IMG/VR virus record: IMGVR_UViG_3300033146_000850
Location: 1-64,000 of that record
Direction: 5' to 3' (one strand)
DNA from: a virus
DNA: 64,000 bases
This document shows, piece after piece, positions 5,674-58,301 of the stretch; position 1 is the stretch's first letter; the number at the start of each line of letters is the position of its first letter. The notes below the pieces were generated by a model that saw only the letters and a program-made list of their open reading frames with translations, was not told the DNA's origin and made no database searches. The position numbers and the translations under genes were made by a program.

Positions 5674-6752
5674 GTAAAACAGATTCCAAAATATTGATTC
5701 AACAGTTAGGTTTGGAAGGTATTGAAATAAACGGTGATAATTATAATTTTAGATGTCCTATATGTGGCGATTCCAAAAAGAATAGTTCTAAAAAACGAGG
5801 ATATTTATTTTGGGATACTAAACATAATAGAGGATATAGATATAAATGTTTCAATTGTGGGGTTAGTTATACGCTTGAGTATTATTTGAAATTATATAAC
5901 CCTGATTTATATAAACAATATGTATTCGATGGGTTGAAATATAAATATACAAATAAATCAAAAATGAATATGGTAAAAGATGATTTATTAGAGAAAGTTG
6001 ATAATTCTTTGGTTAAAAAATTATTAAATGATAAAATAAAAGAAAAAATTATAATTCCAATTACTAAAATAAAAAAATATAATATTCGAGAGTATATATA
6101 TAACAGACGTATTCCTAAGCATAAATTGAAATACATATATTATATTGATAATTTTTATGAAACACTATATGAGCCTATTAAAAAATTATTAAATGATAAA
6201 AATATAAAAGATGGTTCTTTCGATACTGACCCTAGAATATTTTGGTTTATTAAAAATAGGAATAATGAAATTATAGGAATACAGGGTAGAAGTATATTAG
6301 AAGATGCAAAAATTAGATATTTGACTATAAAGATAACAGATGATGTAATGGTTGGAAATCTTGAAAACATTCAACTGAGCGAACGTGTGTACGTTACAGA
6401 GGGGTTTATTGATAGTTTATTTCTACCAAATGCTGTATCACTAAATGGAAGCTCGTTCAAATCAACATTAAACAAATTAAAACATATTGGAGTCGAGGAT
6501 ATTGTAATTATTTTTGATAATGAGCCTTATAATAAAGAAATAAGGAAAAAGGTAGTAGAAGTTGTTAATGAGAGTATTATGGTTAATGGTGTTAAATTAG
6601 GGGTTTGTTTGTTACCTGAAAGAATTAGAAATAAAGGAAAAGATGTTAATGATTATATTAAAAATGGTATTGATATTTCTAAATTGATAAATATAATTAA
6701 TGAAAATACTCATTATGGAAAAATTGCAAAAATAAAAATGTTAAGGTGGTGA
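5664..6752 (+). CDS. 61: T4 gp61-like DNA primase
   Basis: NFRCPICGDS..KKRG and CFNCG zinc ribbon; QGRS; TOPRIM VTEGFIDSLF, FDNEP, KDVND. Confidence 0.95.
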   Translation: MALSKTDSKILIQQLGLEGIEINGDNYNFRCPICGDSKKNSSKKRGYLFWDTKHNRGYRYKCFNCGVSYTLEYYLKLYNPDLYKQYVFDGLKYKYTNKSKMNMVKDDLLEKVDNSLVKKLLNDKIKEKIIIPITKIKKYNIREYIYNRRIPKHKLKYIYYIDNFYETLYEPIKKLLNDKNIKDGSFDTDPRIFWFIKNRNNEIIGIQGRSILEDAKIRYLTIKITDDVMVGNLENIQLSERVYVTEGFIDSLFLPNAVSLNGSSFKSTLNKLKHIGVEDIVIIFDNEPYNKEIRKKVVEVVNESIMVNGVKLGVCLLPERIRNKGKDVNDYIKNGIDISKLINIINENTHYGKIAKIKMLRW

Positions 6753-9663: not shown

Positions 9664-12600
9664 ATGTCTATTACAATAAATAATACAATAATTATCGACC
9701 AACCATCTCAATTTTTAAAACGAACACAGATGGAAATATTAAATTTTAAACATATACCTGATGTTCCTAGTGATACTGTTCAATGGAAAATATTAAAAGC
9801 TCCCATTAGTAATAATGATGCAAATTATGTTGAAAATTGGGGTATAAGCCACTCTAGTAATAGTGTTAATACCAATGAGATATTAGTGTTAAATTTATCA
9901 GGGACTTATAAAATAGAAATAGAAGAGACTATAAATGGTGTTAATAGAAAATATGTGCTAGCCATTCAATGTGAATCACTTAAAGAATCTATTTCGACAC
10001 CATTTCCAGGTGAAACAATTGAAGTAAATGATGTTGATGGTTGGGCAAGAAAGGTAGAGGATTCAATACAATCATTAGCTCAAAATGAGGGTTGTTTTAG
10101 TGTTATTGGGTCTAATAATTCACAATCTTATGTTGTTGGTGACCTTGTCGTGGTCGATTCTATTAATAATAAAATAGTGTCTGGGTTTATATATGGTTTA
10201 AATTCGTTAAATGATGCTTACAGTGTGGTCGGATATAATTCTACAATAGGTATAGTTGTGGATGTTATTGATGATTCTGGAGATGTTGTATATTCTGCTG
10301 GTCGTCCTTTTTATAGAGTGTTGATGGAGGGTGCTTATAAATTAAATAGTTCTATACCACCATTTAATTCAACATCTTGTAGTATTTTTTATGATACTGT
10401 AAATCACGAGTTGAGTTCTGATTATACTAAGGGTTATTATGTTGGTAAATATTTTTATAATAGTGGTGATGGTGCATTCATCATAATTGAAAATCAGATT
10501 TTAATGGATTATGAGAATGAGGTATCCCCTTTTGGTTTCTTTTATAATACTAAAAATTTTGAGGTTGCAAGTTGGATATCTGATTCAGGTATTATTAAAA
10601 TAGATTTTATACATAATTTAAATTCATCCAATATTATAGTAGAAATATGGAACGAATCTAATTCGGCTGATATATTTAGAGTTAATCCATTAAAAGTATT
10701 AAAAATAGATAATAATAATATTTCAATACATATGAATCCAGGTCAAGAGTTTGATGGTAGAATTAACATAATTAGAATCGATTCGGATACAGCTGTTCCT
10801 GTTAGTAATATTATCGATGTCCAATTAGATGGTATTAGCTCATCACAAAAGGATTCTCTTAATTTTATCACTGGAGATAATGTTTCATTGGTTATTACTG
10901 ATAATAATATAAACGGAAGAGCAGATATAACTATTAATGCTGAACAACCATTGAGATTAGAAGCTAATCACGATATTAGTCATAGTATGCAAGGTAGCAT
11001 TACATTTACATCATATGCACTGGGTACATTTGATAATCCATTTTATGTTAACGGTGAATATATTTACACCGCTAGTAGAGATATTAATGGTGGAACTCAC
11101 TTAATAATAAATAATATGACAATTGACCCTCCATATATTGGATTTATAAATCAATTGAATAGCCATAATAATACATATGATTTTGATTACTTCATAGGTT
11201 CGACTATTCATAATATATATGCTAAAGACGGCTATGTTTTTGTTACTAGTGATACTAGTAACTCTGATACTACACCAATTATTAGAGTGTATGATGAGTT
11301 GAGTAATAAACACATTATGAATATTCAAATTTTTAATTTGGGAGATTTTGTTAAAGATATGTTCTTATATGATGATTCATTATTCATATTAAAAACAAAC
11401 GGAACAGAGTCTTTAATTCGAAATTATAATTTAACAACTCAAAATTATACGGATATTGTTACATCTATATCCAATAATGCTTTTGGTCTAAAATGTGATG
11501 ACGGGATTATGTATCTTGGATATGATGATAGCATTGCTAATGATAGATATATAGTTGAAGAATATGATATGCTATCATCAGGTTTAGTCAATACTTATAA
11601 TTTACCAATACCATCAGGTTATATTATTTATAATTATCCTGATTTTGATGTATATAATGGAAATATATATATTGGATATTCTGAGGTGTCAAGCGATGAT
11701 TTTATTATTAGTGTTTTTAATATTTTAAGTTCGAATGTTGTTATTTTAAATACTAATGTGAGTTGTAAAACATACACTGGTCTATTTCAGGTTATAGATG
11801 ACACTACTATACAATTGTTAAATGATGAAAATAAGGTGGATGAATGGACTTATGATTTAACAACACCTACAATGACCATTAATATTGAGCGACCTTTAAA
11901 GTTTATAGAATCTATTCATTTATCTATGTTAGAGTATAATCAAGTATTATCATTAATTGCTAATGGTGAGTTGTTTATGACGGATTCTAATACAATATTT
12001 ACTTCTACCTCACATGTTGAAAAATCTTTTATAGTTGGCTCATATCAAATGGATAATGTTGCGAATCCATCGTGTTATAATCGAATGTTTTATGATAAAA
12101 CAAACGGTTCTTTTAGAGTTGGGAGAGCAATTTCAACCCAGTGGGATGATAGAGGTGATTATAGCTTCGTTGCAGGTAGAAATTGCTTATCTTCCGGTGA
12201 TTTTAATTTTGTCGGTGGGGACGAATCAAGTGTACATTCGAGTTCTAATTATAACTCCGTGTGGGGTGAGCGTTGTGATGTTACAGACTCCAGTTATAAT
12301 AGCATTGTTGGAACTACTCATAATGTGGATACATCAGCTTTTAATATTATAATTGGAGGTAGTATCCATCTTGAAGATTCTAATTATAGTAATATTACTG
12401 GTTTCAATATTAACCTACAGTGTTCTGCTTATAATAATATTACTGGAATAAGTAATAATATTATAGGTTTGGATGGGTTTAATTTAGCTAGGTATAATAA
12501 TGTTATAGGTCATGGAAATATAGTCAATACCTCTAGTTATAATATTATTAATGGGGAGGATAACAACGTTGATGATTCTGATTATAACATTGTTAGTGGT

Positions 12601-13713
12601 GATGGTCACGATGTTGTTGGTTCTATTGGTAACAGTATTAGTGGGTCTAATCATAATACTGATGATACTCATCGTAACGGTATTAGTGGGAATGGTCACA
12701 ATATTGATGGTTCCAATAATAACAGTATTAGTGGGGATGGTCACATAATTAATAATTCTATTGATAACAGTATTAGTGGGAAGGATAACAACGTTAATGG
12801 TTCCAATTATAACATTATTAGTGGGGTTAGTCACATAATTAATAATTCTACTGATAACAGTATTATTGGGTATAGTCACACTATTGATGATTCCTCTCAT
12901 AATAGTATTAGTGGGTATGGTCACGATATTGATGATTCCTATAATAACAGTATAAGTGGTGATACTCACGATATTGATGATTCCTCTCATAATAGTATTA
13001 GTGGGTATGGTCACGATATTGATGATTCCTCTCATAATAGTATTAGTGGGTATGGTAACGATATTGATGATTCCGATTCTAACAGTATAAGTGGAGATAT
13101 TCACAGTATTAATAATTCTAGTAATAATAGTATTAGTGGGTATGGTCACGATATTGATAATTCTGATTATAACATTATTAGTGGGTTTAATAATAAATGT
13201 AACGATTTTAATTCAAGTTTAATTGTTGGTAGTTATGGACTTATTACTAGTAATAATTCTATAACATTAAGTAATCAACTAGAAACTATTACTGGTGAGT
13301 ATGGATTGTCTCAAAATGTCAATATCGTTATGTCTAAAATAACAAATAATATGACCGAGCAACCTATGGAAATAAATGGATTGGATTATATATATATACC
13401 TGACAATGTTGCGTTTATTGTTGAAATATATGCTGTTGGGCAAACAACGACACCAGGGTCTAGTATACTTCCAGTTTCTACACATATGATTGCCAGTGGA
13501 TATACTGCACCTATAAACAATAGCGATGGTGGTAGTAATGGATTAGTTGCAACTTCTATTTCTGGGACTACAAGTGAATTTGATGTTAGAATGACAGCTA
13601 TGCATCAATTACAGATATTTGTTTCAGCACCACATAATATGGAGACTTATAGATGGTCTGCTAATGTTAATATAACTATGATTGGAGGGGTTAATGCCCA
13701 TATATCATCATAA
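9664..13713 (+). CDS. Large virion fibre/spike protein with propeller-like middle and 14-aa beta-helix repeats
   Basis: 1349 aa; HxIDDSxxNSISGxG repeats; RMFYDKTNGSFRVG adhesin-like motif. Confidence 0.7.
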   Translation: MSITINNTIIIDQPSQFLKRTQMEILNFKHIPDVPSDTVQWKILKAPISNNDANYVENWGISHSSNSVNTNEILVLNLSGTYKIEIEETINGVNRKYVLAIQCESLKESISTPFPGETIEVNDVDGWARKVEDSIQSLAQNEGCFSVIGSNNSQSYVVGDLVVVDSINNKIVSGFIYGLNSLNDAYSVVGYNSTIGIVVDVIDDSGDVVYSAGRPFYRVLMEGAYKLNSSIPPFNSTSCSIFYDTVNHELSSDYTKGYYVGKYFYNSGDGAFIIIENQILMDYENEVSPFGFFYNTKNFEVASWISDSGIIKIDFIHNLNSSNIIVEIWNESNSADIFRVNPLKVLKIDNNNISIHMNPGQEFDGRINIIRIDSDTAVPVSNIIDVQLDGISSSQKDSLNFITGDNVSLVITDNNINGRADITINAEQPLRLEANHDISHSMQGSITFTSYALGTFDNPFYVNGEYIYTASRDINGGTHLIINNMTIDPPYIGFINQLNSHNNTYDFDYFIGSTIHNIYAKDGYVFVTSDTSNSDTTPIIRVYDELSNKHIMNIQIFNLGDFVKDMFLYDDSLFILKTNGTESLIRNYNLTTQNYTDIVTSISNNAFGLKCDDGIMYLGYDDSIANDRYIVEEYDMLSSGLVNTYNLPIPSGYIIYNYPDFDVYNGNIYIGYSEVSSDDFIISVFNILSSNVVILNTNVSCKTYTGLFQVIDDTTIQLLNDENKVDEWTYDLTTPTMTINIERPLKFIESIHLSMLEYNQVLSLIANGELFMTDSNTIFTSTSHVEKSFIVGSYQMDNVANPSCYNRMFYDKTNGSFRVGRAISTQWDDRGDYSFVAGRNCLSSGDFNFVGGDESSVHSSSNYNSVWGERCDVTDSSYNSIVGTTHNVDTSAFNIIIGGSIHLEDSNYSNITGFNINLQCSAYNNITGISNNIIGLDGFNLARYNNVIGHGNIVNTSSYNIINGEDNNVDDSDYNIVSGDGHDVVGSIGNSISGSNHNTDDTHRNGISGNGHNIDGSNNNSISGDGHIINNSIDNSISGKDNNVNGSNYNIISGVSHIINNSTDNSIIGYSHTIDDSSHNSISGYGHDIDDSYNNSISGDTHDIDDSSHNSISGYGHDIDDSSHNSISGYGNDIDDSDSNSISGDIHSINNSSNNSISGYGHDIDNSDYNIISGFNNKCNDFNSSLIVGSYGLITSNNSITLSNQLETITGEYGLSQNVNIVMSKITNNMTEQPMEINGLDYIYIPDNVAFIVEIYAVGQTTTPGSSILPVSTHMIASGYTAPINNSDGGSNGLVATSISGTTSEFDVRMTAMHQLQIFVSAPHNMETYRWSANVNITMIGGVNAHISS
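12490..13190 (+). repeat. 42-nt coding tandem repeat (14-aa unit)
   Basis: aacagtattagtggg...ggtcac.atattgatgattc recurring at a 42-nt period. Confidence 0.9.
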
Positions 13714-13728
13714 GGATATAGTGTTATT

Positions 13729-14733
13729 ATGAAAAAAACCGAAGAATTAATAACAATAACAGCTGGTGGTGAACCAGGCACCGAAGAAATACGTAATGCT
13801 TATAGTGTTAATGTTGATGGGGATGTATGGTACGTATTTGTAGTTGGTGATGATATTTACACTAGGAGAAAAATATCAGGTACTTTGGAGACAACTAATT
13901 ATCGTATTTGTCAGGGTGATAATCCTATTTTAATGTATAATACCCCAAATTTATATTTATTTTTTGTCAGAGATGGTAAAGTTTTTAAAAAAACTTGGGA
14001 TAAAAATGTTGATATTACAACTTTGAGTGAATCTGAAAAACAAGATGATTATTTATCATCCCCTAAACAAAAACATGATTTTGATGCAAGTGCTTATTCG
14101 GTTGGTGAGAGACACGTGGATGAATATTCATCAACTTATTTTACAAATTATGGTTTTAGTGTTAGTGCTGATTATATATATACTAGATTATTACACGACT
14201 CCGTTGATTTAATTATTAGAATAAATAGTTTTAATAACAGTCCTTTTAATGGTGATACGATATATGGTATGATGTACGTTCGAACAGGTGATTCTTGGAC
14301 CCAGTTGTGGGGTGAAAAAAAACAGTATAAAATAGATATGTATATATATAAGAATATGAAAAGACGTATATATGGTATAAAATGGTTTAGTAGTATAGGT
14401 GAGGAAACTGGAATTATTACAATATATGTCCCTGTGTCTCAAGATTTAAATAATGTTTTAGATTATACTAAATATAGTGTAGGTGATTATAATGCTAGTC
14501 GTAATAATGGATATATAACTGCTAGTTATAGCCATATCAAGAGAGATTTTAAAGATTATACAATCAATGATGCTAAATATAGCGTTGGTGATTATGATAT
14601 TGGTCGTAATAATGGATATATAACTGCTAGTTATAGCCATATCAAGAGAGATTTTAAAGACTATACAATCAATGATGCTAAATATAGCGTTGGTGATTAT
14701 GATGTTGGTCGTAATAATTGTTATTTTGTATGA
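13729..14733 (+). CDS. Hypothetical virion-associated protein with C-terminal 35-aa tandem duplication
   Basis: Long ORF in the structural operon. Confidence 0.65.
   Translation: MKKTEELITITAGGEPGTEEIRNAYSVNVDGDVWYVFVVGDDIYTRRKISGTLETTNYRICQGDNPILMYNTPNLYLFFVRDGKVFKKTWDKNVDITTLSESEKQDDYLSSPKQKHDFDASAYSVGERHVDEYSSTYFTNYGFSVSADYIYTRLLHDSVDLIIRINSFNNSPFNGDTIYGMMYVRTGDSWTQLWGEKKQYKIDMYIYKNMKRRIYGIKWFSSIGEETGIITIYVPVSQDLNNVLDYTKYSVGDYNASRNNGYITASYSHIKRDFKDYTINDAKYSVGDYDIGRNNGYITASYSHIKRDFKDYTINDAKYSVGDYDVGRNNCYFV
14465..14720 (+). repeat. 105-nt near-perfect tandem repeat (~2.4 copies)
   Basis: cgtaataat at 14500, 14605 and 14710. Confidence 0.9.
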
Positions 14734-34297: not shown

Positions 34298-35848
34298 ATG
34301 TCTATTGTTTTACAAAATAAATCAAAATCGAGGTTAGCTGTTGATATCAATAGTTCGGCAATGTCTTTGACCGTTGATAGTGGAACAGGTGATAATTTTG
34401 CAACTTGTGATTCGGAATCACATATGTGGATTACTATAATTGACCAGACAACATATGGTGGTGAGTCTGAAATACTAGAAATTGTAAAAGTTTCACCTAG
34501 AAGTGGAGACACTTTTACAATAGTTGAACGTGGTGCAGAGGGAACCACTGCTAGAGCCTTTGTTATTGGGGACATTGTAGAGCAAAGAATTACAGCACAA
34601 ACATTATTTGATTTGGGTGTATCAACAAATAAAAATCGAAAGTATGTAGATGAAATATATATTACTTTGAAACGACATGAGGAATTTTCAAATTCATTTG
34701 AAATGGAAAGATTTAATGATAAATATGCACCTCAACTAATTAGTAATTGGGATTCATATTGGGGTTCACGTTTAAAAGTTCAAGTTGAGGATATTACCAC
34801 ACACGTGATATATGATAATTTGAGTTTTGACACCACTGATGATATGTATAATTGGGGTTCGGCACATTGTACTCTTGATGCATTGTCTACATATAATGAG
34901 ACATTGATTGCTAGACCTTACGAGGTTATTGATTCATCTATTCCAACACCTAGTAAAATATATGGATTGAATAGATTTTATTCCTCCATCAAAGGTAGAA
35001 AAAATTATAATAATAATTTGATATGCACTGCTAATAATTCAAATCTGTTATCCGCTTGTACTACTATTTTTAATTCAGTATGGGGTACTAGTTTAACTGA
35101 TATGGATATGGATATTCATAGCATATGGTTAGGCAGACCTAAAAAAAATAAATATTCTAACCCACCATTTTTAAAAGATGGTCAATATGTTGTAAATTTT
35201 GATACGGCTAATGCCCCAACAAGACGTGAATATAATATTAATGATGGTGTTTTTTATGATAACTCGTTTGACCAATATAGTAATGTTAGTAGCACCGTTA
35301 GATATGCTTTTATTGAAACTGGTAATTATAATGTTAATATTACTGGGGTTGATGAATGGACTAGTATCAATTCTAGTATCAAGGATAGTGGTTCATCATA
35401 TATAATAGCTTGTGGTGTTCAAAATAATAATGCAAATGAACGAAAAGCAGTTGTGATTAAACCATTAGGAATAGACCAGGTTGTAATGATGATGCCAGAC
35501 TTTGAAATATATGATTTTGAGATTGTATTTTATAATAATGATATGCAAAATCATATATATGTAAAATCTTTTACCGATGATACAGATTTTATAGATACAT
35601 TTATTGATATTGACGGTGGTAAAATGTTAATGAATAGCTCCGAGTGGTTATCTGTAGATATTAATAGTCAGACTTATGTTTCACATAATTCTACTGGATA
35701 TAATGATTTACCTTGGTCAACTGTTAGGTTTAGGTTGAGGAATAAAATTACTAAAGAAATTTCAGAATTAAGTGAATCAGGTATAGTAACGGAGAAAAAA
35801 CATAACCTAAAACAATTACAAATGAAAATAAAATCTTTTAATTCCTAA
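34298..35848 (+). CDS. Virion-associated protein; C-terminal region paralogous to 40080..41483
   Basis: N-terminal EIVKV..RSGDTFTIVERGAEGT anchor-type motif; KIYGLNR..SIKG and IKPLGID. Confidence 0.7.
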   Translation: MSIVLQNKSKSRLAVDINSSAMSLTVDSGTGDNFATCDSESHMWITIIDQTTYGGESEILEIVKVSPRSGDTFTIVERGAEGTTARAFVIGDIVEQRITAQTLFDLGVSTNKNRKYVDEIYITLKRHEEFSNSFEMERFNDKYAPQLISNWDSYWGSRLKVQVEDITTHVIYDNLSFDTTDDMYNWGSAHCTLDALSTYNETLIARPYEVIDSSIPTPSKIYGLNRFYSSIKGRKNYNNNLICTANNSNLLSACTTIFNSVWGTSLTDMDMDIHSIWLGRPKKNKYSNPPFLKDGQYVVNFDTANAPTRREYNINDGVFYDNSFDQYSNVSSTVRYAFIETGNYNVNITGVDEWTSINSSIKDSGSSYIIACGVQNNNANERKAVVIKPLGIDQVVMMMPDFEIYDFEIVFYNNDMQNHIYVKSFTDDTDFIDTFIDIDGGKMLMNSSEWLSVDINSQTYVSHNSTGYNDLPWSTVRFRLRNKITKEISELSESGIVTEKKHNLKQLQMKIKSFNS

Positions 35849-35868: not shown

Positions 35869-36003
35869 AAAATAATGAATGGGAATGTTTAAAATACCCT
35901 TGTTCAGTAAAGAGGTCCGATTAAAATCCCTTTGTTCAGTAAGGTGGTCCGTTTAAAATCCCCTTGTTCAGTAAGGTGTTATTTTCCATTCATTATTTTT
36001 CTT
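35869..36003 (+). ncRNA. Candidate structured RNA: three 32-nt hairpin repeats enclosed by a 17-bp closing stem
   Basis: Units at 35889, 35921 and 35953 with invariant TTGTTCAGTAA. Closing stem 35869-35885 pairs with 35983-35999. AATAAATA at 35857. Transcription is inferred. Confidence 0.55.
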
Positions 36004-36014
36004 TAAATATAAAT

Positions 36015-36022
36015 CATAAATA
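36015..36022 (+). promoter_or_regulatory. Late promoter-like CATAAATA
   Basis: Lies between the hairpin array and the next gene. Confidence 0.55.
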
Positions 36023-38851: not shown

Positions 38852-40024
38852 ATGGCTTTATTAAGAGGTTCTTCACAAATTTTAGATTTAAGTATCCCGA
38901 TTGGTAAACTAGAATCTGATTTTTTAAATGGTGTAAATTGGGACATTACAGACGGAAACAACAATGCTACTATTACAGGGCTACAAGCAGGAACTAGTGC
39001 TAATGATGCTGTGAATTATCAACAGCTTATGGATTTAATTAACGGTCAGAGAGTCAGAGAAGTAAGAGTTTTCGCAACATCTAACGTTACTCTAAATGGT
39101 GCACACACGGAAGACGGCATAGCACTTAATACTGGAGACAGAATTGCGTGTTTTAATCAGACTACTTCTACCGAGGACGGTATTTATGTCGTTGACACAA
39201 CAGGAGCTTGGGCAAGAGCTACTAATTTTGATACTAATTTTGAAGCAAGAAGTTGTAAAATTCTTGTTTCAGAAGGAACTGCAAGGGAAAACACTCAATG
39301 GTTTATTACTAATGACAAAGGAAACGATGTTGTAGGAACAGCTGATTTAGTAGCTGTACAAACTGGTAGTTCAGGAATGATGACTGCTGATAATGGTTTA
39401 ACAATGACTGGAAGCAATATTCAGTTAGGTGGAGCATTAAATCAGAATACTACCATCACGACTGCGACTAATTCCTTTACTTTTTCTGGTACAGGGGTAG
39501 GCGGTACTTTTAATGTTCATGCAAATGATGCTGTAACCATTTGGGGAAACCAGGCTCAAATTATATTCAACAATCATTTAGATTTAGATGCCAATTTGAC
39601 TATCCGTTTTAATGACGATGAAATTAAATCATCATCAGTTCTGAGTGCAATTCCATTTTCAATGACAGCAACGACTGATTATGGTAATGGTAATGGTACA
39701 TCAGCAGGAGATGTTATTGACCAATTCAGAGCCGATTTTACAGATGATGCTATTGTTAATGCTTTAGTTGAGCTTAAAGCTATAGTTGATAATCCAGAAG
39801 TGATAATAGAGGAAAGTATTACTGTAGCCAACGGAACATCAATCACTCTTACAAATGGAACTACTACATCTGTAATTAAAGATGTATTTCTTAATGGTAA
39901 TAGACTTGTTCCAACAACCGAATTTACAGTCGGAGATAATGGAACATACAGAACAATCACAGAAGTAATCGCAAATCAGGATTTTACAGATGGCGATGTT
40001 GTTACAGTTAAGTATGTAGCTTAA
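38852..40024 (+). CDS. Virion fibre/decoration protein
   Basis: ITGLQAGT.ANDAVNYQQL; VRVFATSNVTLNG..DG..L..GDRI..NQ....DGIYVV module; AGGAGG RBS. Confidence 0.75.
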   Translation: MALLRGSSQILDLSIPIGKLESDFLNGVNWDITDGNNNATITGLQAGTSANDAVNYQQLMDLINGQRVREVRVFATSNVTLNGAHTEDGIALNTGDRIACFNQTTSTEDGIYVVDTTGAWARATNFDTNFEARSCKILVSEGTARENTQWFITNDKGNDVVGTADLVAVQTGSSGMMTADNGLTMTGSNIQLGGALNQNTTITTATNSFTFSGTGVGGTFNVHANDAVTIWGNQAQIIFNNHLDLDANLTIRFNDDEIKSSSVLSAIPFSMTATTDYGNGNGTSAGDVIDQFRADFTDDAIVNALVELKAIVDNPEVIIEESITVANGTSITLTNGTTTSVIKDVFLNGNRLVPTTEFTVGDNGTYRTITEVIANQDFTDGDVVTVKYVA

Positions 40025-40038
40025 TGTTTAATAGGTTT

Positions 40039-40064
40039 AGCTCCTACCTAAAAGGAGCTTTTTT
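40039..40064 (+). terminator. Intrinsic terminator
   Basis: agctcct-acctaaa-aggagct followed by T run. Confidence 0.85.
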
Positions 40065-40079
40065 ATATAGGAGGATATA

Positions 40080-41483
40080 GTGGGACAAATAAGAAATTCA
40101 CAAATTATAAATAATGACCTAACAGGGGCTAGTATCAATAGAAACTTTAGGTTTTTTGATGAAAGAGAAATACCTATCAGTGCAGGTGAAATTAGATTTT
40201 GGCAAGGTGTGTTCTGGAGGGTTATATCAGATATAACTATAACTGAAACTGGAGGCTCAATTCCTAAAGAGGGTGATATGACATATTCCCCTGATTCTCA
40301 ACCTATTTATTGGCAAAAAATACCTAATTATGGGGTTGATAGGATTGTTTTTGAAAGTATGGATATACCTGGATATAATATAACAACTAACATCTTGAAT
40401 GGTGATTGTATTCAACCAATGGCTAGTAGAATGCATAATAATTGGGAAGTATATGGTGAAAATTTATTATTTGATGTTACTGATGAAGGTGGTAATTCGT
40501 GGTATGGTTTAACTTTTCCAACTATTACAGATTATATCACGTGGCATAATAGTCAAACATTTATATCTATGGTTCACGTTGAAATATATGGGTTGTTAAA
40601 TAGTAAAAAAAATAATTATCATAAGATTTATGGTAGAAATGAGGGTTTATCTATAATTAAGGGGTGTGATATTAACGGTAGAAGTAATTATCATAAAAAT
40701 ATATGTTTATTTCAATCGAATTGGGATGAAAGAAGCACATTTGCAATGGATATATTAAATAGATTAACAGGAACAACACCATCCAGTTCGACCGATGCCC
40801 AAAGATGCATACATTCACCAGGAAATCAATCAATTTATACATTATACCAAACACTAAACACACCTAATACTATACATTTTAATGGTGGATTAAATTCAAA
40901 TAAAAGATGTTATAATCCATCAACTTTAGGGTTTAACTCTATTAATTCGGGGGATGTTTTTCTACCAATGCTTGGTGGTAATGGATTTTATGCTATTACA
41001 CAAAATACAGGTGGGTGGTCATTTATAGGTGTTCAAAATCTTGTTGATAATAGATATATTGACAGTGTAAGTCTTGTTAAAGTATATGGATTTCAAAGAA
41101 ATGACGGTTGTGTTATTGCTATAGTTAAACCAGTAGGTCAAGATTCATGGAGAATATCTTGGAAAGAACCTGTAAATAATAAAAAAATAATAATAGGATT
41201 TTATAATAGGGATGATAAAATGATATTAAAAGATGTTACATCTTTAGTTGATTCGTTTTCCAATGGTGGAACATCATTTTTAATACCTAAAAGTGTATTG
41301 AGTGCTGGTAATAAATCATCAACTAATTATAATTTATCAAAAATGACCGTTAGGAATATGGAAATTTTTATATCTGATGGTGATGGATTTATTTCAAAAG
41401 TACCACATTCTATAGATTGGATATTGAAAGCAAATGGTGCAAAGGCATATTTATTACTCAATAATAATCATTCATATAATTAA
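40080..41483 (+). CDS. Virion-associated protein; paralogue of 34298..35848
   Basis: GTG start with AGGAGG; KIYGRNE..IIKG and VKPVGQD. Confidence 0.7.
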   Translation: MGQIRNSQIINNDLTGASINRNFRFFDEREIPISAGEIRFWQGVFWRVISDITITETGGSIPKEGDMTYSPDSQPIYWQKIPNYGVDRIVFESMDIPGYNITTNILNGDCIQPMASRMHNNWEVYGENLLFDVTDEGGNSWYGLTFPTITDYITWHNSQTFISMVHVEIYGLLNSKKNNYHKIYGRNEGLSIIKGCDINGRSNYHKNICLFQSNWDERSTFAMDILNRLTGTTPSSSTDAQRCIHSPGNQSIYTLYQTLNTPNTIHFNGGLNSNKRCYNPSTLGFNSINSGDVFLPMLGGNGFYAITQNTGGWSFIGVQNLVDNRYIDSVSLVKVYGFQRNDGCVIAIVKPVGQDSWRISWKEPVNNKKIIIGFYNRDDKMILKDVTSLVDSFSNGGTSFLIPKSVLSAGNKSSTNYNLSKMTVRNMEIFISDGDGFISKVPHSIDWILKANGAKAYLLLNNNHSYN

Positions 41484-41496
41484 AAACATAAATAAT

Positions 41497-41600
41497 ATTG
41501 ATTAGGGTTGTAATACTAAGATACCCTAACTATAAAGGTATGATACTAAAAAACCTTAACTAAAAGGATTTAATACTAAAAAATCCTAACTAATTTTTAT
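41497..41600 (+). ncRNA. Candidate structured RNA or leader: three 30-nt hairpin repeats with covarying stems and ATACTAA loop
   Basis: Units at 41501, 41531 and 41561; stems AGGGT/ACCCT, AAGGT/ACCTT, AGGAT/ATCCT; CATAAATA at 41487. Confidence 0.6.
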
Positions 41601-41627
41601 TTAAATATTAAAAGGGGGTGACCACAT

Positions 41628-43658
41628 ATGATAACGTATAAACTTTGGAGTGAGGTTGACGCTGTAACATCAGGTGATATTGTAGTATATGGTAATGAAT
41701 TATGGGAGGCTACTTCTAATATTTCACCTGCTTATTATGGAGATAAAAGTAATACTCCAACATTCAGTCCAAATTGGAAAAAATCAAATAATACTCAATA
41801 TATTAATGTAAAATATATTAATCATTTTATAGAAGTTAAAATTGACACATCTGTTGATGATGTTACATTCATATTACCTGACCCATCTCTTAATAATAGA
41901 AAAGATATACACGTAGCTTTAAATACATCTGGCAATACATTGACAATTGAGACAAATACACCAACTGTCAAGATTAATAATAGTATAACTAGTATGGATT
42001 TTAATGTATCCGCTGATAGTATAGTACTTCATCCATCTAGTGATATAAATTATCAAATACGCTCGGAGGTTGCCGATAAACCACCTTTAGTTTTTTGTTG
42101 TAGACCAGGGTCAACGCAATCTTTTACAACTACATTAACCAATATTAATTATGATACAATATTATTAGATAAAGGTTCATTTGCTCATCTATCATCTGGG
42201 GAAATATATTTCGATATAGGTGGTATTTATAATATATCTGTATCATATGGTGGAAGAGTTACAAATAATAGTAGAACAGAGGTTAATGGATATTTACAAA
42301 TAAATAAAGGTAGTGGTTTTGTAAATGTTCCTGATTTACAACTTAATGCGTATCATAGACATATTAGTCAAGGTGCTGATGGTGACAGTCAAACAATATC
42401 ATTAGAAATAGAAGCTGGTGATATTATTCGTGTTCAAGTTGTTGGTGATGGTGGTTCTATTGAGACTATCCCTGCTAGTTGTACTATAAATATCACGGTA
42501 TCTAAAGGGTTGCGAGGTGAAAAAGGGGAAAAAGGTGAGCAAGGTTTTGATGGAGCAGATGGTGACATTACCTGGGAAGGTGGTTGGACAGCTGGAACAT
42601 ATCAAGAAAATATGGCAGTTGAATATAATGGGTCATCTTTTGTTTGTATTCAAAATGGAACGAATATTAATCCTGGCACACCAGACACCCCAAATTCTGG
42701 GTGGGAATTGCTTGCAAAAAAGGGGTCTGATGGTTCAGGGGCTACCATTAACGTATCCGAAGATGGAACTATGGCTACCAATACCCCACACGGAACTCTT
42801 AATTTCAAAAAAGGAGTTATTATTAGTGATGCTGGCGGAGGCGTTGCTGATATAAATATAGTGAATGTTCAACCTTATATTGGTAATAATGATGATGTTT
42901 TATTATTTATAAATGTAACTGGGGATATTTTTATCGCTGGGGATAATTTTGATAATAATATGTCTGTTGATTTAGGAAGTGATGTTACTGTAAATTATAT
43001 TGAGGCGTTGACACCAAATAATTTAAAAATTAACTATACTACAAGTTCAAGCATTCAATCCGCTGTTAATATTGAATTTACAAGAAACGGTATTCCATCA
43101 TTTGGTCACACTATTACTTGTACGGTCACTGATGTTATAATTGGAAATGGTGTTGCTGGAACGTGGGTTGAAAATTTCAACACATCATCCTGGAGTACAC
43201 CAAGATGGAATGTTGTAGAAGGTAGTAGTTTAACTAATTTTTTCCATACAGGAGTATCTACACCATCAGGTAATACTGGAGCAACTAGTGCATATGATGG
43301 TAATTTCTTATACGGTGAGAGGTCTAACCCTAATAATGGAGTTGGTAGCTCATACAATGCATATGCAGAAACTTCTGATTTTCATGATTTGACACAAGTT
43401 AGCTTTATGCTTCATAAATGGTCAAGTACACCATCAAATATGGGTGACCTAGTAATATATTCACAAAATTCTAATAACACGTGGACGGAAAGATGGAGAC
43501 ATACTGGAAATGAACAGACAGCACAAGGTGACGCTTTTGTTCAAATTACTCTTAATGCAATTCCCTGGGATTGTAAAGGAATTAGAATAATGTTCGAGGC
43601 GGTTTCTAGTTATATGTCTGATATTTGTATCGATGATGTCGAAATTATTTCAATTTAA
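41628..43658 (+). CDS. Multi-domain fibre protein: short collagen-like segment, carbohydrate-binding-like modules, C-terminal MAM-like domain
   Basis: GLRGEKGEKGEQGFDGADG; W.AGTY....VEYNGSSFVC; FLYGERS...SDICIDDVEI. Confidence 0.7.
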   Translation: MITYKLWSEVDAVTSGDIVVYGNELWEATSNISPAYYGDKSNTPTFSPNWKKSNNTQYINVKYINHFIEVKIDTSVDDVTFILPDPSLNNRKDIHVALNTSGNTLTIETNTPTVKINNSITSMDFNVSADSIVLHPSSDINYQIRSEVADKPPLVFCCRPGSTQSFTTTLTNINYDTILLDKGSFAHLSSGEIYFDIGGIYNISVSYGGRVTNNSRTEVNGYLQINKGSGFVNVPDLQLNAYHRHISQGADGDSQTISLEIEAGDIIRVQVVGDGGSIETIPASCTINITVSKGLRGEKGEKGEQGFDGADGDITWEGGWTAGTYQENMAVEYNGSSFVCIQNGTNINPGTPDTPNSGWELLAKKGSDGSGATINVSEDGTMATNTPHGTLNFKKGVIISDAGGGVADINIVNVQPYIGNNDDVLLFINVTGDIFIAGDNFDNNMSVDLGSDVTVNYIEALTPNNLKINYTTSSSIQSAVNIEFTRNGIPSFGHTITCTVTDVIIGNGVAGTWVENFNTSSWSTPRWNVVEGSSLTNFFHTGVSTPSGNTGATSAYDGNFLYGERSNPNNGVGSSYNAYAETSDFHDLTQVSFMLHKWSSTPSNMGDLVIYSQNSNNTWTERWRHTGNEQTAQGDAFVQITLNAIPWDCKGIRIMFEAVSSYMSDICIDDVEIISI

Positions 43659-43660
43659 AC

Positions 43661-43689
43661 TTGACAAATCATAAATTATAATGTAATAT
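43661..43689 (+). promoter_or_regulatory. sigma70-type promoter
   Basis: TTGACA-17 nt-TAATAT. Confidence 0.55.
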
Positions 43690-43722
43690 GTTTTTGTTGT
43701 TATTTATTTTAGAGGTTTAATT

Positions 43723-44706
43723 ATGAAGTTAGAAAATATTGGATTCTATAGTTTATATGATGAACGTGTTAAAAATGTTAGTCCAAAATCTCAAATGAAA
43801 AGATGTGAAATGATTATTACTGAATATTGTAATTTCAAATGTCCATATTGTAGAGGTTTGGATAATGGGATATATGGTGATAGGAAAAAGAAAGAATTAT
43901 CTTTTGATGAAATTAAAAGAAATATTGATTTGTGGTGTTTAAATGAACCTCTTGAAAATATTAGATTTTCAGGTGGTGAGCCAACTTTACATTCAGACAT
44001 AGTCAACATTGTTAAATATGCTAAATCTAAAAAAATTAAAAGAATAGCAATATCAACTAATGGGTCTAATAACATTGATTTATATAAAGAACTTATTGAT
44101 GCTGGTGTTAATGATTTTTCTATATCTTTGGATGCTAATTGTTCATCAGATGGCGATATGCTGGCTGGTTACATTGAGGGTTCTTGGAATATAGTTGTTG
44201 AAAATATTAAAATATTATCAAAATTGACATATGTAACGGTTGGTGTGGTGTTATCACCTGATAATATATCCAACACTGTATCAACCATTAATTTTGCACA
44301 CGACTTAGGAGTTGATGATATTAGAATTATATCATCCGCACAATGGAATAAACCTATTCCTGGATTAAAAAAGGTTAGTAAAGAGGTTCGGGATGCTCAT
44401 CCAATCTTAAATTATAGAATAGAACATTTTGCAAATGGTAGAAATGTTAGAGGAATAAAAGCAACTGATTCTAATAAATGTTCATTGGTTTTAGATGATA
44501 GTGTTATTGCTGGTGATTATCATTTTCCTTGTGTAATATATATGAGAGAGAAGGGTGCTCCTATTGGTAAAATAAATACTAATATGAGAAATGATAGAGT
44601 TAAATGGTTTGAAACCCATAACACTTATTTAGATGATATTTGTAGAAATAATTGTTTAGACGTTTGTATAGACTATAATAACAAATATAATTGTTATAAA
44701 CATTAA
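43723..44706 (+). CDS. Radical SAM protein with C-terminal Cys cluster (SPASM/twitch-like)
   Basis: CNFKCPYC, FSGGEP, ISTNGS, SISLD; C-terminal PC..C..CLDVC. Confidence 0.9.
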   Translation: MKLENIGFYSLYDERVKNVSPKSQMKRCEMIITEYCNFKCPYCRGLDNGIYGDRKKKELSFDEIKRNIDLWCLNEPLENIRFSGGEPTLHSDIVNIVKYAKSKKIKRIAISTNGSNNIDLYKELIDAGVNDFSISLDANCSSDGDMLAGYIEGSWNIVVENIKILSKLTYVTVGVVLSPDNISNTVSTINFAHDLGVDDIRIISSAQWNKPIPGLKKVSKEVRDAHPILNYRIEHFANGRNVRGIKATDSNKCSLVLDDSVIAGDYHFPCVIYMREKGAPIGKINTNMRNDRVKWFETHNTYLDDICRNNCLDVCIDYNNKYNCYKH

Positions 44707-50376: not shown

Positions 50377-50390
50377 AAATCAAAATAAAC

Positions 50391-50419
50391 TTGACAAACA
50401 TATTTTTATGTGATATATT
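50391..50419 (+). promoter_or_regulatory. sigma70-type promoter with extended -10
   Basis: TTGACA-17 nt-TATATT, preceded by TG. Confidence 0.7.
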
Positions 50420-50454
50420 ACATTTGACTATTTTTTACTTTTAAGGAGATTGAC

Positions 50455-55184: not shown

Positions 55185-55616
55185 ATGGACGATTCACACA
55201 GTAAATTTTTTAAAACTATACCAGCTCATATGTTAAAAGAATTAATATATGAATTTATTGAGGTCGATTTGAAATTATCATTTAATATAATTCGGGAAAC
55301 TTTGGCTAGAATTGGTGATGTTGAAGGTGATACACTATATCAATTATCTCATATTTTATTTAAAAAAAACAAATATTATATAGTTCATTATAAACAGTTG
55401 TATAAGTTAGATGGTCAAGATATTAATATCGAAACATCGGATATTAATAAGCTATATAAAATTGTTTCATTACTATATAAATGGGGATTTATAGATATTA
55501 AAAACGATAGAGATTTATTAAATGCAAATAAAAATGAATCAATATATGTCAATATAGCAAAGATGTCTAACGTTAAAAATGGTTCAATCAAACTTCAAAA
55601 AAAATATAATTTATAA
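55185..55616 (+). CDS. regA: RegA translational repressor
   Basis: FNIIRETLARIG, LYQLSHIL, YYIVHYKQLYKLDG, LLYKWG; follows gp62. Confidence 0.92.
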   Translation: MDDSHSKFFKTIPAHMLKELIYEFIEVDLKLSFNIIRETLARIGDVEGDTLYQLSHILFKKNKYYIVHYKQLYKLDGQDINIETSDINKLYKIVSLLYKWGFIDIKNDRDLLNANKNESIYVNIAKMSNVKNGSIKLQKKYNL

Positions 55617-57794: not shown

Positions 57795-58301
57795 TTATAT
57801 TAAAGACTCGGTAGCAATTATATCACCATCAGTAGCAATTACATCAACATCAGTAGCAATTACATCGCTATCAGTAACCACAGCATCAACATCAGTAATT
57901 ACTGCATCACTATCTGTAACTACTGCATCACTATCTGTAACTACGGCATCACTATCTGTAACTACGGCATCACTATCAGTAACCACAGCATCAACATCAG
58001 TAATTACTGCATCACTATCAGTAACCACTGCATCACTATCAGTAACTATAACATCACCGTCAGTAACTATAGCATCACCATCAGTAACCACAGCATCAAT
58101 ATCAGTAACCACGGCATCACCATCGGTAGCCATAACATCACCGTCAGTAACTATAACATCACCATCGGTAACCACAGCATCACCATCGGTAGCCATAACA
58201 TCACAATCACATTTTTTGGAAACATCACTATTTTTTTTAATGCAACCAATAATAGCAAATTGAATAATCATAACGAATAACATTGTTTTAAAAATTTTCA
58301 T
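57795..58301 (-). CDS. Predicted lipoprotein made of 7-aa TD[G/S/V]DAVV repeats
   Basis: Signal peptide MKIFK...AIIGC; about 18 repeats; minus-strand TATAAATA at 58336-58343. Confidence 0.75.
   Translation of the reverse strand: MKIFKTMLFVMIIQFAIIGCIKKNSDVSKKCDCDVMATDGDAVVTDGDVIVTDGDVMATDGDAVVTDIDAVVTDGDAIVTDGDVIVTDSDAVVTDSDAVITDVDAVVTDSDAVVTDSDAVVTDSDAVVTDSDAVITDVDAVVTDSDVIATDVDVIATDGDIIATESLI
57810..58205. repeat. 21-nt coding tandem repeat
   Basis: catcac/aatcagtaacc units at a 21-nt period. Confidence 0.9.

What the first reader, a model, noticed from the sequence alone, without database searches (positions are those of the whole stretch)
41497..41600. 3x30-nt array with compensatory stem changes and invariant ATACTAA loop
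Seen: units attAGGGTtgtaATACTAAgatACCCTaac, tataAAGGTatgATACTAAaaaACCTTaac and taaaAGGATttaATACTAAaaaATCCTaac. The stem sequences differ between copies but pairing is always preserved, while the loop and the TAACTA linker are constant. Covariation between copies argues for single-stranded structure rather than a dsDNA operator. The array lies between CATAAATA (41487) and the RBS of the collagen/MAM fibre gene, so it may be a regulatory 5' leader or a free RNA.
Basis: partly seen in the sequence, partly recalled or inferred. Interest (0 to 1): 0.8.

Follow-up and report, generated by a model that had tools for sequence, protein, structure and literature searches.

The report
Conserved triple-hairpin RNA element in phage
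Three tandem 30-base hairpins between two tail-fibre-cluster genes of an uncultured AT-rich phage are real and recur at the same spot in two related phages with different stems but preserved pairing, so they are most likely a new structured RNA element whose job is still unknown.

Summary
Window 41500-41592 carries three 30-nt units, each a 5-7 bp hairpin with ATACTAA in the loop and a TAACTA linker. The two homologous loci I could fetch (L002, L003; upstream protein 58% and 44% identical) carry the same 30-nt hairpin array at the same place, with different stem sequences. Across 8 units, 94.6% of 56 stem cells pair against 75% in shuffles (0 of 500), and 5 of 7 pairs change on both sides.

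The unit occurs nowhere else in either phage. It matches no Rfam family. One IMG/VR pattern scan returned only the known relative.

It starts 7-10 nt after a T4-late-promoter-like motif, C(A)TAAATA. That motif and its variants head the list of 7-mers enriched in non-coding DNA here.

The array tracks the upstream gene family, not the fibre gene. A paralog of the upstream gene (34298-35848) is followed by a different three-repeat RNA-like element.

Best reading: a transcribed, structured, probably protein-binding RNA module, which here forms the 5' leader of the fibre mRNA. Leader versus free small RNA is unresolved, there are no expression data, and the fold energy in the window is unremarkable.

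The parts
40080..41483 (+). Upstream gene X1 (467 aa, no Pfam or PHROG family); the array follows its stop codon
   Evidence: ORF. No family. Six homologs at 44-65% identity. An array follows the ortholog in both loci that could be fetched.
41487..41494 (+). Promoter-like motif CATAAATA, preceded by an A-tract (41482-41486); resembles the T4 late promoter TATAAATA
   Evidence: C[AT]?TAAATA: 77 sites, 17 in the 5.8% non-coding DNA against 4.5 expected. 12 of the 15 listed non-coding sites lie 22-52 nt before a start; this one lies 134 nt before. The same motif is enriched in relative G001: 18 non-coding against 4.4 expected.
41502..41529 (+). Hairpin 1: TTAGGGT / ACCCTAA, loop tgtaATACTAAgat
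   Evidence: model hit 41503-41532, 35.6 bits.
41535..41557 (+). Hairpin 2: AAGGT / ACCTT, loop atgATACTAAaaa
   Evidence: model hit 41533-41562, 37.0 bits.
41565..41587 (+). Hairpin 3: AGGATTT / AAATCCT, 9-nt loop AATACTAAA
   Evidence: model hit 41563-41592, 42.8 bits.
41527..41532 (+). Linker TAACTA, copy 1
   Evidence: The CT of the linker is invariant in all 8 units of three genomes.
41557..41562 (+). Linker TAACTA, copy 2
41587..41592 (+). Linker TAACTA, copy 3
41594..41602 (+). T-rich tract TTTTTATTT, 6 nt after hairpin 3; not a canonical terminator
   Evidence: The terminator scan finds 0 sites in 41300-41750.
41612..41621 (+). Shine-Dalgarno region AAGGGGGTGA of the fibre gene
   Evidence: Read.
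41628..43658 (+). Downstream fibre-like gene (676 aa, collagen-like repeats, PHROG tail fibre)
   Evidence: 49% identical over full length to the gene after the array in L003.
34298..35848 (+). Gene X2, paralog of X1 over about 250 aa
   Evidence: BLASTP E 2e-5. hhalign of the X1 family profile against X2: 91.9% probability, E 7e-7, 246 columns.
35869..36003 (+). Second, unrelated three-repeat element (32 nt x 2.9) inside a 17-bp closing stem followed by a U-run; sits after X2 and before a CATAAATA motif at 36015
55185..55616 (+). RegA-family translational repressor gene. It is a candidate binder only, not shown to be part of the element.
   Evidence: PF01818 at 61.7 bits, over the cut-off; phrog_242 at E 3.9e-26.

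Best explanation
The array is a transcribed, structured RNA module on the + strand. A phage-specific, T4-late-like promoter motif (CATAAATA, 41487-41494) starts an RNA whose first roughly 90 nt fold into three stem-loops. Each has a covarying stem of about 7 bp and a 9-14 nt A/U-rich loop (consensus NAUAYWAAA), and the units are joined by a conserved pyrimidine-CU linker (YYUNWCU).

The stems serve as scaffolds. The three identical loops and three identical linkers are the parts that are read, most likely by a sequence-specific RNA-binding protein that binds several sites at once. In this phage no terminator follows, so the module is the 5' end of the fibre-gene mRNA. There it would set the stability or translation of that late message.

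Shown: the repeats, the conserved pairing in three genomes, uniqueness of the unit, the position after the promoter-like motif, and synteny.

Inferred: transcription, the transcription start, protein binding, and any effect on the fibre gene.
For: - **Anatomy:** described.
- **Conserved fold:** across 8 units from 3 genomes, 94.6% of 56 stem cells pair against 75.0 +/- 3.6% in shuffles (0 of 500). 5 of 7 pairs change on both sides. Slid controls give 34-66%.
- **Synteny:** the upstream gene ortholog, then the array, then (in L003) a fibre ortholog 49% identical. The 30-31 nt period is kept.
- **Relative's fold energy:** L003 6400-6580 folds better than 199 of 200 shuffles, z -3.07.
- **Strand:** 6 G-U cells and no A-C cell, on the same strand as all neighbouring genes.
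- **Promoter-like motif:** it ends 7, 8 and 10 nt before hairpin 1 in the window, L002 and L003. It is enriched in non-coding DNA in both phages. L002 also scores 10 of 12 as a sigma-70-type promoter at that spot.
- **No terminator** is called in the window.
- **Long leader:** 134 nt here, against 22-52 nt for 12 of the 15 listed non-coding motif sites.
- **No conserved ORF** runs through the units.
- **Constrained loops and linkers:** they are identical within a genome while the stems vary.
Against: - There are no expression data; no sequencing run could be listed.
- Fold energy in the window is ordinary (z -0.02 and -1.2).
- Only three genomes are available, and one array is cut by a contig end.
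- In L003 a 9-bp fourth hairpin and a second CTAAATA motif 29 nt before the fibre start lie between array and gene. There the array looks more like its own small RNA than a leader.
- The array type follows the upstream gene family. The paralog X2 has a different three-repeat element, and the two downstream genes are unrelated (hhalign probability 0.08%).
- Between-unit pairing is not excluded: 85.7% of 35 cells, reached by 25 of 500 shuffles.
- The invariant loop letters are mostly A or T in a 28% GC genome, so loop conservation alone is weak evidence.
- The motif also precedes a helicase gene and a GroEL gene, so 'late' is not shown.
Confidence: 0.45

Rival explanations
1. The array is a stand-alone small RNA gene that is the cognate partner of the upstream protein family X. 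Each X paralog carries its own three-repeat RNA just downstream, under its own promoter. The RNA acts in trans on or with X, for example as a ribonucleoprotein partner, regulator or assembly helper, not as a leader of the next gene.
For: - X1 and X2 are paralogs, and each is followed by one of the only two non-coding tandem repeats of period 25 or more in 126 kb.
- The genes downstream of the two arrays are unrelated.
- All orthologous loci that could be fetched (2 of 2) keep the array after X.
- Array 2 ends in a 17-bp stem plus a U-run, followed by a fresh CATAAATA motif before the next gene.
- L003 has a strong fourth hairpin and a second promoter motif before the fibre gene.
Against: - The window's array 1 has no terminator.
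- X has no known RNA-binding domain or any other family, and its model is poor (pLDDT 53).
- The shared domain of X2 is acidic, pI 4.6.
- The paralog was not found in the relative G001, which is about 60% complete.
Confidence: 0.22
2. The array is an anti-defence decoy RNA. It would be an orphan array resembling a type III antitoxin (ToxI-like), or another nuclease or RNA-binding-protein sponge, expressed by the phage to neutralise a host abortive-infection toxin, as pseudo-ToxI does in phage PhiTE.
For: - The architecture is promoter, then about 3 tandem repeats of about 30 nt, then (in L003 and array 2) a hairpin or terminator.
- In PMC3401426 (passages read), toxIN repeats are 31-62 nt, with 1.9-5.6 copies, preceded by a promoter and followed by a terminator, and the families are dominated by Firmicutes and Fusobacteria.
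- PhiTE encodes such a mimic (PMC3475682, passages read).
Against: - No ToxN-like gene is present (although that search rang in no control genome). The next gene is a 676-aa fibre protein.
- The units are simple hairpins with covarying stems, not near-identical pseudoknot repeats.
- At 30 nt the unit lies just below the published range.
- The position is fixed between the same two structural-cluster genes in phages as far apart as 44% protein identity.
- A scan of 185,579 species' genomes for the two-unit motif gave 32 loci, and none had stems of 5 bp or more at both sites.
Confidence: 0.07
3. The element acts at the DNA level: three phased protein-binding sites (ATACTAA and TAACTA boxes every 30 bp, about three helical turns), or a recombination site in the fibre-gene cluster.
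For: - The boxes are exactly spaced and identical.
- The site lies beside host-range genes.
Against: - A duplex operator predicts conserved half-sites, not compensatory changes. Yet 5 of 7 stem pairs change on both sides while pairing is kept.
- The boxes themselves differ between the three genomes.
- G-U pairs occur on one strand only.
- The unit has no other copy in the genome for any recombination partner.
Confidence: 0.05
4. The array has little or no function of its own. It would be a tandemly duplicated weak hairpin left between genes, for example a decayed terminator or mRNA 3'-end protector of gene X.
For: - The hairpins are weak and the fold energy is ordinary in the window.
- Tandem repeats arise easily by slippage.
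- The L002 units are nearly identical, which suggests recent homogenisation.
Against: - Copy number (3 and 3), the 30-nt period, hairpin geometry and position persist at 44-58% protein identity, where neutral intergenic DNA would be scrambled.
- No U-run follows the stems, whereas real terminators in this phage are canonical (seen upstream of 40080 and 21532).
Confidence: 0.12

Closest known systems
Type III toxin-antitoxin antitoxin arrays (ToxI, CptI, TenpI) and the phage PhiTE pseudo-ToxI mimic (PMC3401426 and PMC3475682, passages read)
   Same: Both are non-coding tandem repeats of about 30-60 nt in about 2-5 copies, behind a promoter. Here a hairpin follows the repeats in the relative L003, and array 2 ends in a stem plus a U-run. 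A phage can carry such an array without the toxin.
   Different: No endoribonuclease toxin gene is adjacent. The units are covarying simple hairpins, not near-identical pseudoknots. The 30-nt unit is below the reported 31-62 nt range. The locus is fixed inside a structural gene cluster, and no bacterial counterpart was found.
T4-family translational operators: RegA sites and the gene 43 hairpin operator (review PMC3014915, passages read)
   Same: The phage encodes a RegA homolog. The displayed loops and linkers are A+U-rich with UAA-type words, like the RB69 RegA SELEX consensus AAUAAUAAUAAnA. The gene 43 operator is a short hairpin with a UAAC-type loop upstream of a ribosome-binding site.
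   Different: RegA sites are described as unstructured and overlapping or abutting the AUG. This array ends about 20 nt before the Shine-Dalgarno sequence, is triplicated, and follows the upstream gene family.
Promoter-proximal RNA elements of phage late or antiterminated operons: lambda nut boxB, HK022 put, and the lambda 6S / StxS short late RNA. The first three are recalled; StxS was seen only as a listing and the start of an abstract, PMC7547250.
   Same: They are small stem-loops placed directly after a promoter and, in L003, before a terminator-like hairpin and the gene.
   Different: There is no sequence or loop similarity. There are three repeated units. No terminator is present in the window, and no antiterminator has been identified.
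Multi-hairpin protein-sponge small RNAs such as CsrB and RsmZ (recalled)
   Same: They have repeated hairpins that display one short motif many times to a protein.
   Different: The motif here is AUAYWAA, not GGA. The element is phage-encoded, has three units, and sits in a fibre-gene cluster.
PeSL promoter-stem-loop cassettes of T4-type phages (recalled; named in earlier scan notes)
   Same: They combine a promoter with a stem-loop in intergenic DNA of a T4-like regulatory background.
   Different: PeSLs are dispersed, repeated, early-promoter cassettes. This unit has no other copy in either genome.

Membership tests
Type III TA antitoxin array (ToxI-like) | Tandem non-coding repeats, about 31-62 nt, 1.9-5.6 copies (PMC3401426 Table 2) | tested here: inconclusive
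   3 copies fit the range. The 30-nt unit is one base below the toxIN range.
Type III TA antitoxin array (ToxI-like) | A terminator after the repeats, then an endoribonuclease toxin gene (ToxN, CptN or TenpN, about 150-170 aa) | tested here: not met
   No terminator in the window. The next gene is a 676-aa fibre-like protein. PF13958 was not found in G000 or G001, but that search rang in no control genome.
Type III TA antitoxin array (ToxI-like) | Near-identical repeats folding into pseudoknots | tested here: not met
   The units are 74-81% identical, with compensatory stem changes typical of plain hairpins. No pseudoknot pairing was seen by eye; no pseudoknot predictor was run.
RegA translational operator | The phage encodes RegA | tested here: met
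   PF01818 is over its cut-off in G000 (61.7 bits) and G001 (67.1 bits). phrog_242 matches.
RegA translational operator | An unstructured A+U-rich site overlapping or just 5' of the AUG (PMC3014915) | tested here: not met
   The array is A+U-rich, but it is built of hairpins and ends at 41592, 36 nt before the ATG at 41628.
Intrinsic terminator | A G+C-rich stem directly followed by a U-run | tested here: not met
   0 terminator-like sites in 41300-41750. The T-run starts 6 nt after hairpin 3.
Any Rfam family | A score at or above the family's gathering threshold | tested here: not met
   0 hits in the whole window at gathering thresholds. The best sub-threshold hits are 13-20 bits against thresholds of 38-141.
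PeSL-type dispersed promoter-stem-loop cassette | Many dispersed copies in the genome | tested here: not met
   The covariance model finds only the array copies in both genomes.
CRISPR array or solitary-repeat RNA anti-CRISPR | Identical repeats separated by spacers, or one repeat matching a host CRISPR repeat | tested here: not met
   The units abut without spacers and differ in their stems. There is no bacterial array with the motif among 32 pattern hits. The host is unknown, so mimicry of a host repeat could not be tested directly.
T4-type late promoter | A TATAAATA-like box at -10, used by a gp55-type sigma factor, in front of late genes | tested here: inconclusive
   The motif is enriched in non-coding DNA and placed 22-52 nt before starts. 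It also precedes a helicase gene and a GroEL gene. The presence of gp55 was not tested.

The most novel reading that the evidence does not exclude
The fibre cluster of this phage lineage holds cognate protein-RNA pairs. Each member of an uncharacterised protein family (X1, X2) is followed, in the slot where tailed phages usually keep a fibre-assembly chaperone gene, by its own promoter-driven RNA built of exactly three repeats. That pseudo-three-fold RNA would bind or template a trimeric fibre-cluster protein, as an RNA partner or chaperone of a virion protein, instead of acting as an ordinary mRNA leader.
Probability: 0.08. Interest if true: 0.9.

Novelty: new variant of a known kind. Interest (0 to 1): 0.6.

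Why it matters
Structured RNAs of phages are poorly catalogued. This is an uncatalogued motif with real comparative support, in a lineage far from cultured phages (best PhoH identity 38%).

It lies among the genes that set host range. The pairing of a protein family with two different three-repeat RNAs hints at RNA-level control, or RNA partnership, of tail-fibre-cluster proteins. I found no paper describing this in two full-text searches (titles and abstract starts only).

If the loops are read by a dedicated protein, the hairpin-and-binder pair would also be a compact orthogonal RNA-protein tool. If the element turns out to be only an mRNA stabiliser, it is a modest addition to known 5' stem-loop biology.

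Tried and rejected
**Coding reading.** Rejected. The frame that opens at the ATG after the motif runs through the repeats in L002, stops after 6 codons in L003, and the TTG frame stops after 21 in the window.

**Genome-wide regulatory signal.** Rejected, because the unit is unique. Of the ATACTAA sites in the 126-kb contig, 12 have a flanking stem of 4 bp or more and 6 have a stem of 5 bp or more. Three of those six are the array.

**Antisense or kissing target.** blastn-short of both arrays against G000 and G001 gave only AT-rich matches of 17 nt or less, so no target was found.

**Bacterial counterpart.** The genome contigs pattern scan gave 32 loci. These were chance matches or TAATACTAAC-type short repeats. 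None had stems of 5 bp or more at both ATACTAA sites, and one locus had a 5-bp stem at one site.

**L001.** The giant-virus MAG hit is a 10-nt microsatellite and is irrelevant.

**More relatives.**
- Scans of viral contigs with X1, the fibre protein, X2, and the A1 and A2 alignments found only one contig.
- Genome contigs with A1 found none.
- tblastn against the phages collection found none.
- The degenerate two-unit pattern in viral contigs found only the same contig.
- The search of earlier findings for relatives returned nothing.

**RegB.** PF10715 was not found, but the search rang in no control genome, so this says little.

**Structure of X1.** pLDDT was 53, too poor to search with. The protein atlas gave no usable hit.

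**Sequestration of the Shine-Dalgarno sequence by the last 3' arm.** I considered a register-shift switch. The MFE folds leave the Shine-Dalgarno sequence unpaired with the array, so this stays an idea only.

**Sequencing runs.** None was listed and no RNA holder was listed.

**Supplements.** Supplementary files of papers were not consulted. Table S1 and S2 of PMC3401426 might list phage-borne or orphan antitoxin arrays that bear on the decoy rival.

Full report
**What is there.**
The window is the first 64 kb of a 126,063-bp virus contig with 28.0% G+C. Its genes are phage-like: tail-fibre families, PhoH, a radical SAM enzyme, GroEL, a helicase and a RegA-type repressor. It is far from cultured phages; PhoH is at most 38% identical to anything in the phage collection.

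A 144-nt gap lies between gene X1 (40080-41483, 467 aa, no known family) and a fibre-like gene (41628-43658). In that gap are three head-to-tail 30-nt units:
- The repeat finder gives three copies spaced 30 and 30 nt, at 74-81% identity.
- TRF gives period 30, 2.8 copies.
- The hairpins are TTAGGGT/ACCCTAA, AAGGT/ACCTT and AGGATTT/AAATCCT.
- ATACTAA is in each loop and TAACTA is after each 3' arm.
- The two stem-core differences between units are both G-C to A-T double changes.

**Is it more than chance?**
ATACTAA itself is not enriched (30 sites against 29.0 expected), and fold energy in the window is ordinary (z -0.02 and -1.2). The case rests on comparison with relatives.

X1 has six homologs at 44-65% identity.
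- **L002** is a 1,580-bp metagenome contig whose protein is 58% identical. It shows, after the stop codon, a promoter-like box and at least two 30-nt units, AGGAAGT-tatacaaaa-ACTTCCT-cactaat, before the contig ends.
- **L003** is part of a 134-kb IMG/VR contig whose protein is 44% identical. It shows three units: GGAGTCT-catataaaa-AGACTCT, GAGTTTT-atattaa-AAAATTC and GGGCTCT-catataaaa-AGACCCT. These are followed by a fibre gene 49% identical to the window's.

I aligned the eight units and counted a 7-bp stem:
- 94.6% of 56 cells pair, against 75.0 +/- 3.6% in shuffles (0 of 500 reach it).
- 5 of 7 pairs change on both sides.
- Sliding the partner by 1-3 columns drops pairing to 34-66%.

A covariance model of the unit finds only the 3+3 array copies in the two phage records (35.5-42.8 bits); the next hit is 14 bits. 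A degenerate two-unit pattern finds only the same relative in 2.9 million viral contigs. The L003 region folds better than 199 of 200 shuffles.

**Which fold and which strand.**
Because the units are tandem, the 3' arm of one unit can also pair with the 5' arm of the next. Counted over the five junctions, that alternative gives 85.7% of 35 cells, with 25 of 500 shuffles reaching it.

The positions that differ between units of one genome pair within units and mismatch between units. The within-unit hairpins are therefore better supported, but a register shift is not excluded.

Six stem cells are G-U on the + strand, and none of the three unpaired cells is A-C. Two of the six G-U cells belong to window unit 1 in the model's register, which has an all-Watson-Crick alternative. 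This favours an RNA read from the + strand, the strand of all neighbouring genes.

**Transcription context.**
The 7-mers most enriched in non-coding DNA of this contig are led by CATAAAT and include ATCATAA, AAACTAA and CTAAATA.
- The motif C(A)TAAATA, usually behind an A-run, has 77 sites. 17 of them are in the 5.8% non-coding DNA, against 4.5 expected.
- 12 of the 15 non-coding sites listed lie 22-52 nt before a start codon.
- The relative shows the same enrichment: 18 non-coding against 4.4 expected.
- The motif resembles the T4 late promoter TATAAATA (PMC3014915, passages read).

One copy (41487-41494) ends 7 nt before hairpin 1. L002 has CTATAATA 8 nt before its first hairpin, and L003 has CTAAATA 10 nt before. 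The array would therefore sit at the very 5' end of an RNA.

'Late' is only inferred, because the motif also precedes a helicase gene and a GroEL gene, and gp55 was not sought.

In the window no terminator follows, and the start codon lies 134 nt from the motif, an exceptional distance. Here the array would be the leader of the fibre mRNA. In L003, a 9-bp fourth hairpin in 30-nt phase, followed by TTT, and a second CTAAATA 29 nt before the fibre start, lie in between. There the array looks like a separate short RNA.

**The array follows the upstream gene.**
I tested this.
- The X1-family profile matches gene 34298-35848 (X2) with 91.9% probability, E 7e-7, over 246 columns (BLASTP E 2e-5).
- X2 is followed by a 32-nt x 2.9 array inside a 17-bp closing stem with a U-run, and then by a CATAAATA motif before the next gene.
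- These two arrays are the only non-coding tandem repeats of period 25 or more in the contig.
- The genes downstream of the two arrays are unrelated (probability 0.08%).

Whatever the RNA does, it is tied to family X at least as much as to the fibre gene.

**How it most likely works.**
The stems vary freely provided they pair. The loops and linkers are identical within a genome and similar between genomes (NAUAYWAAA and YYUNWCU). That is the pattern of a scaffold displaying single-stranded motifs to a sequence-specific reader, three (or six) times over.

I therefore favour a multivalent protein-binding RNA at the 5' end of a phage transcript, acting on stability or translation of fibre-cluster messages.

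A RegA homolog is encoded in both phages, and the loops resemble the A/U-rich, UAA-type RegA ligands. However, published RegA sites are unstructured and sit on the start region (PMC3014915), so this is a candidate binder, not a match.

The rivals are:
- a free small RNA partnered with X;
- a type III antitoxin-like decoy;
- DNA-level sites;
- a functionless duplicated hairpin.

The decoy idea fits the repeat number and the promoter-repeat-hairpin order (PMC3401426; PMC3475682). It fails on the missing toxin gene, the hairpin rather than pseudoknot units, the fixed structural-cluster position, and the absence of any bacterial counterpart among 32 pattern hits.

**Comparison and novelty.**
No Rfam family matches. 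Two full-text searches listed no paper on such an element, judged from titles and abstract starts only.

It works like known promoter-proximal or protein-binding stem-loop elements, but it meets the defining features of none of the families tested. I rate it a new variant of a known kind. It would rank higher only if the protein-RNA pairing with family X proves real.

**Limits.**
There are three genomes, one of them truncated. There are no RNA data and the host is unknown. Gene calls for the motif statistics came from a crude longest-ORF script. Supplementary files of the papers were not consulted.

Noticed in passing
window 35869-36003: A second non-coding element of three 32-nt repeats (TRF 35887-35978) sits inside a 17-bp closing stem followed by a U-run. 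It lies right after the X1 paralog 34298-35848 and before a CATAAATA motif at 36015. It looks like a separate promoter-to-terminator small RNA gene.
   Followed up: partly
window 55185-55616; G001 42261-42614: A RegA-family translational repressor gene (PF01818 over its cut-off, phrog_242) is present in this phage and in the relative. Together with the TATAAATA-like motif, this points to T4-style regulation in an AT-rich, otherwise distant lineage.
   Followed up: partly
whole contig, e.g. window 43680-43722, 50380-50454: A second promoter class has near-consensus TTGACA, about 17 nt, then TGnTATATT/TATAAT boxes. It precedes other genes (radical SAM 43723, 50455, and others beyond the window). 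It looks like the host-type early class.
   Followed up: no
L003 6498-6524 (G001 98087-98113): A 9-bp hairpin GAGAGAAGA/TCTTCTCTC followed by TTT lies in 30-nt phase with the three units, as a fourth, different unit. A second CTAAATA motif follows at 6540-6546.
   Followed up: partly
L002 1518-1580: An ATG 3 nt after the promoter-like box opens a frame that reads through the 30-nt repeats (10 codons per unit) to the contig end. The equivalent frames stop early in L003 and in the window, so this is probably chance.
   Followed up: yes
G001 (relative), non-coding DNA: The 7-mer GGATAGG/CCTATCC is 78-fold enriched in non-coding DNA (12 against 2 in coding). It is an unexamined repeated intergenic signal.
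   Followed up: no
window 12537-13186, 14468-14718, 57811-58209: Long in-frame tandem repeats (45/135 nt, 105 nt, 21-84 nt) lie inside large genes, probably repeat-built fibre or surface proteins.
   Followed up: no
window 43789-43992: The only DNA-level similarity of 40000-44000 to the phage collection is a 204-nt stretch of the radical SAM gene, 73.7% identical to two 735-kb uncultured phage records.
   Followed up: no
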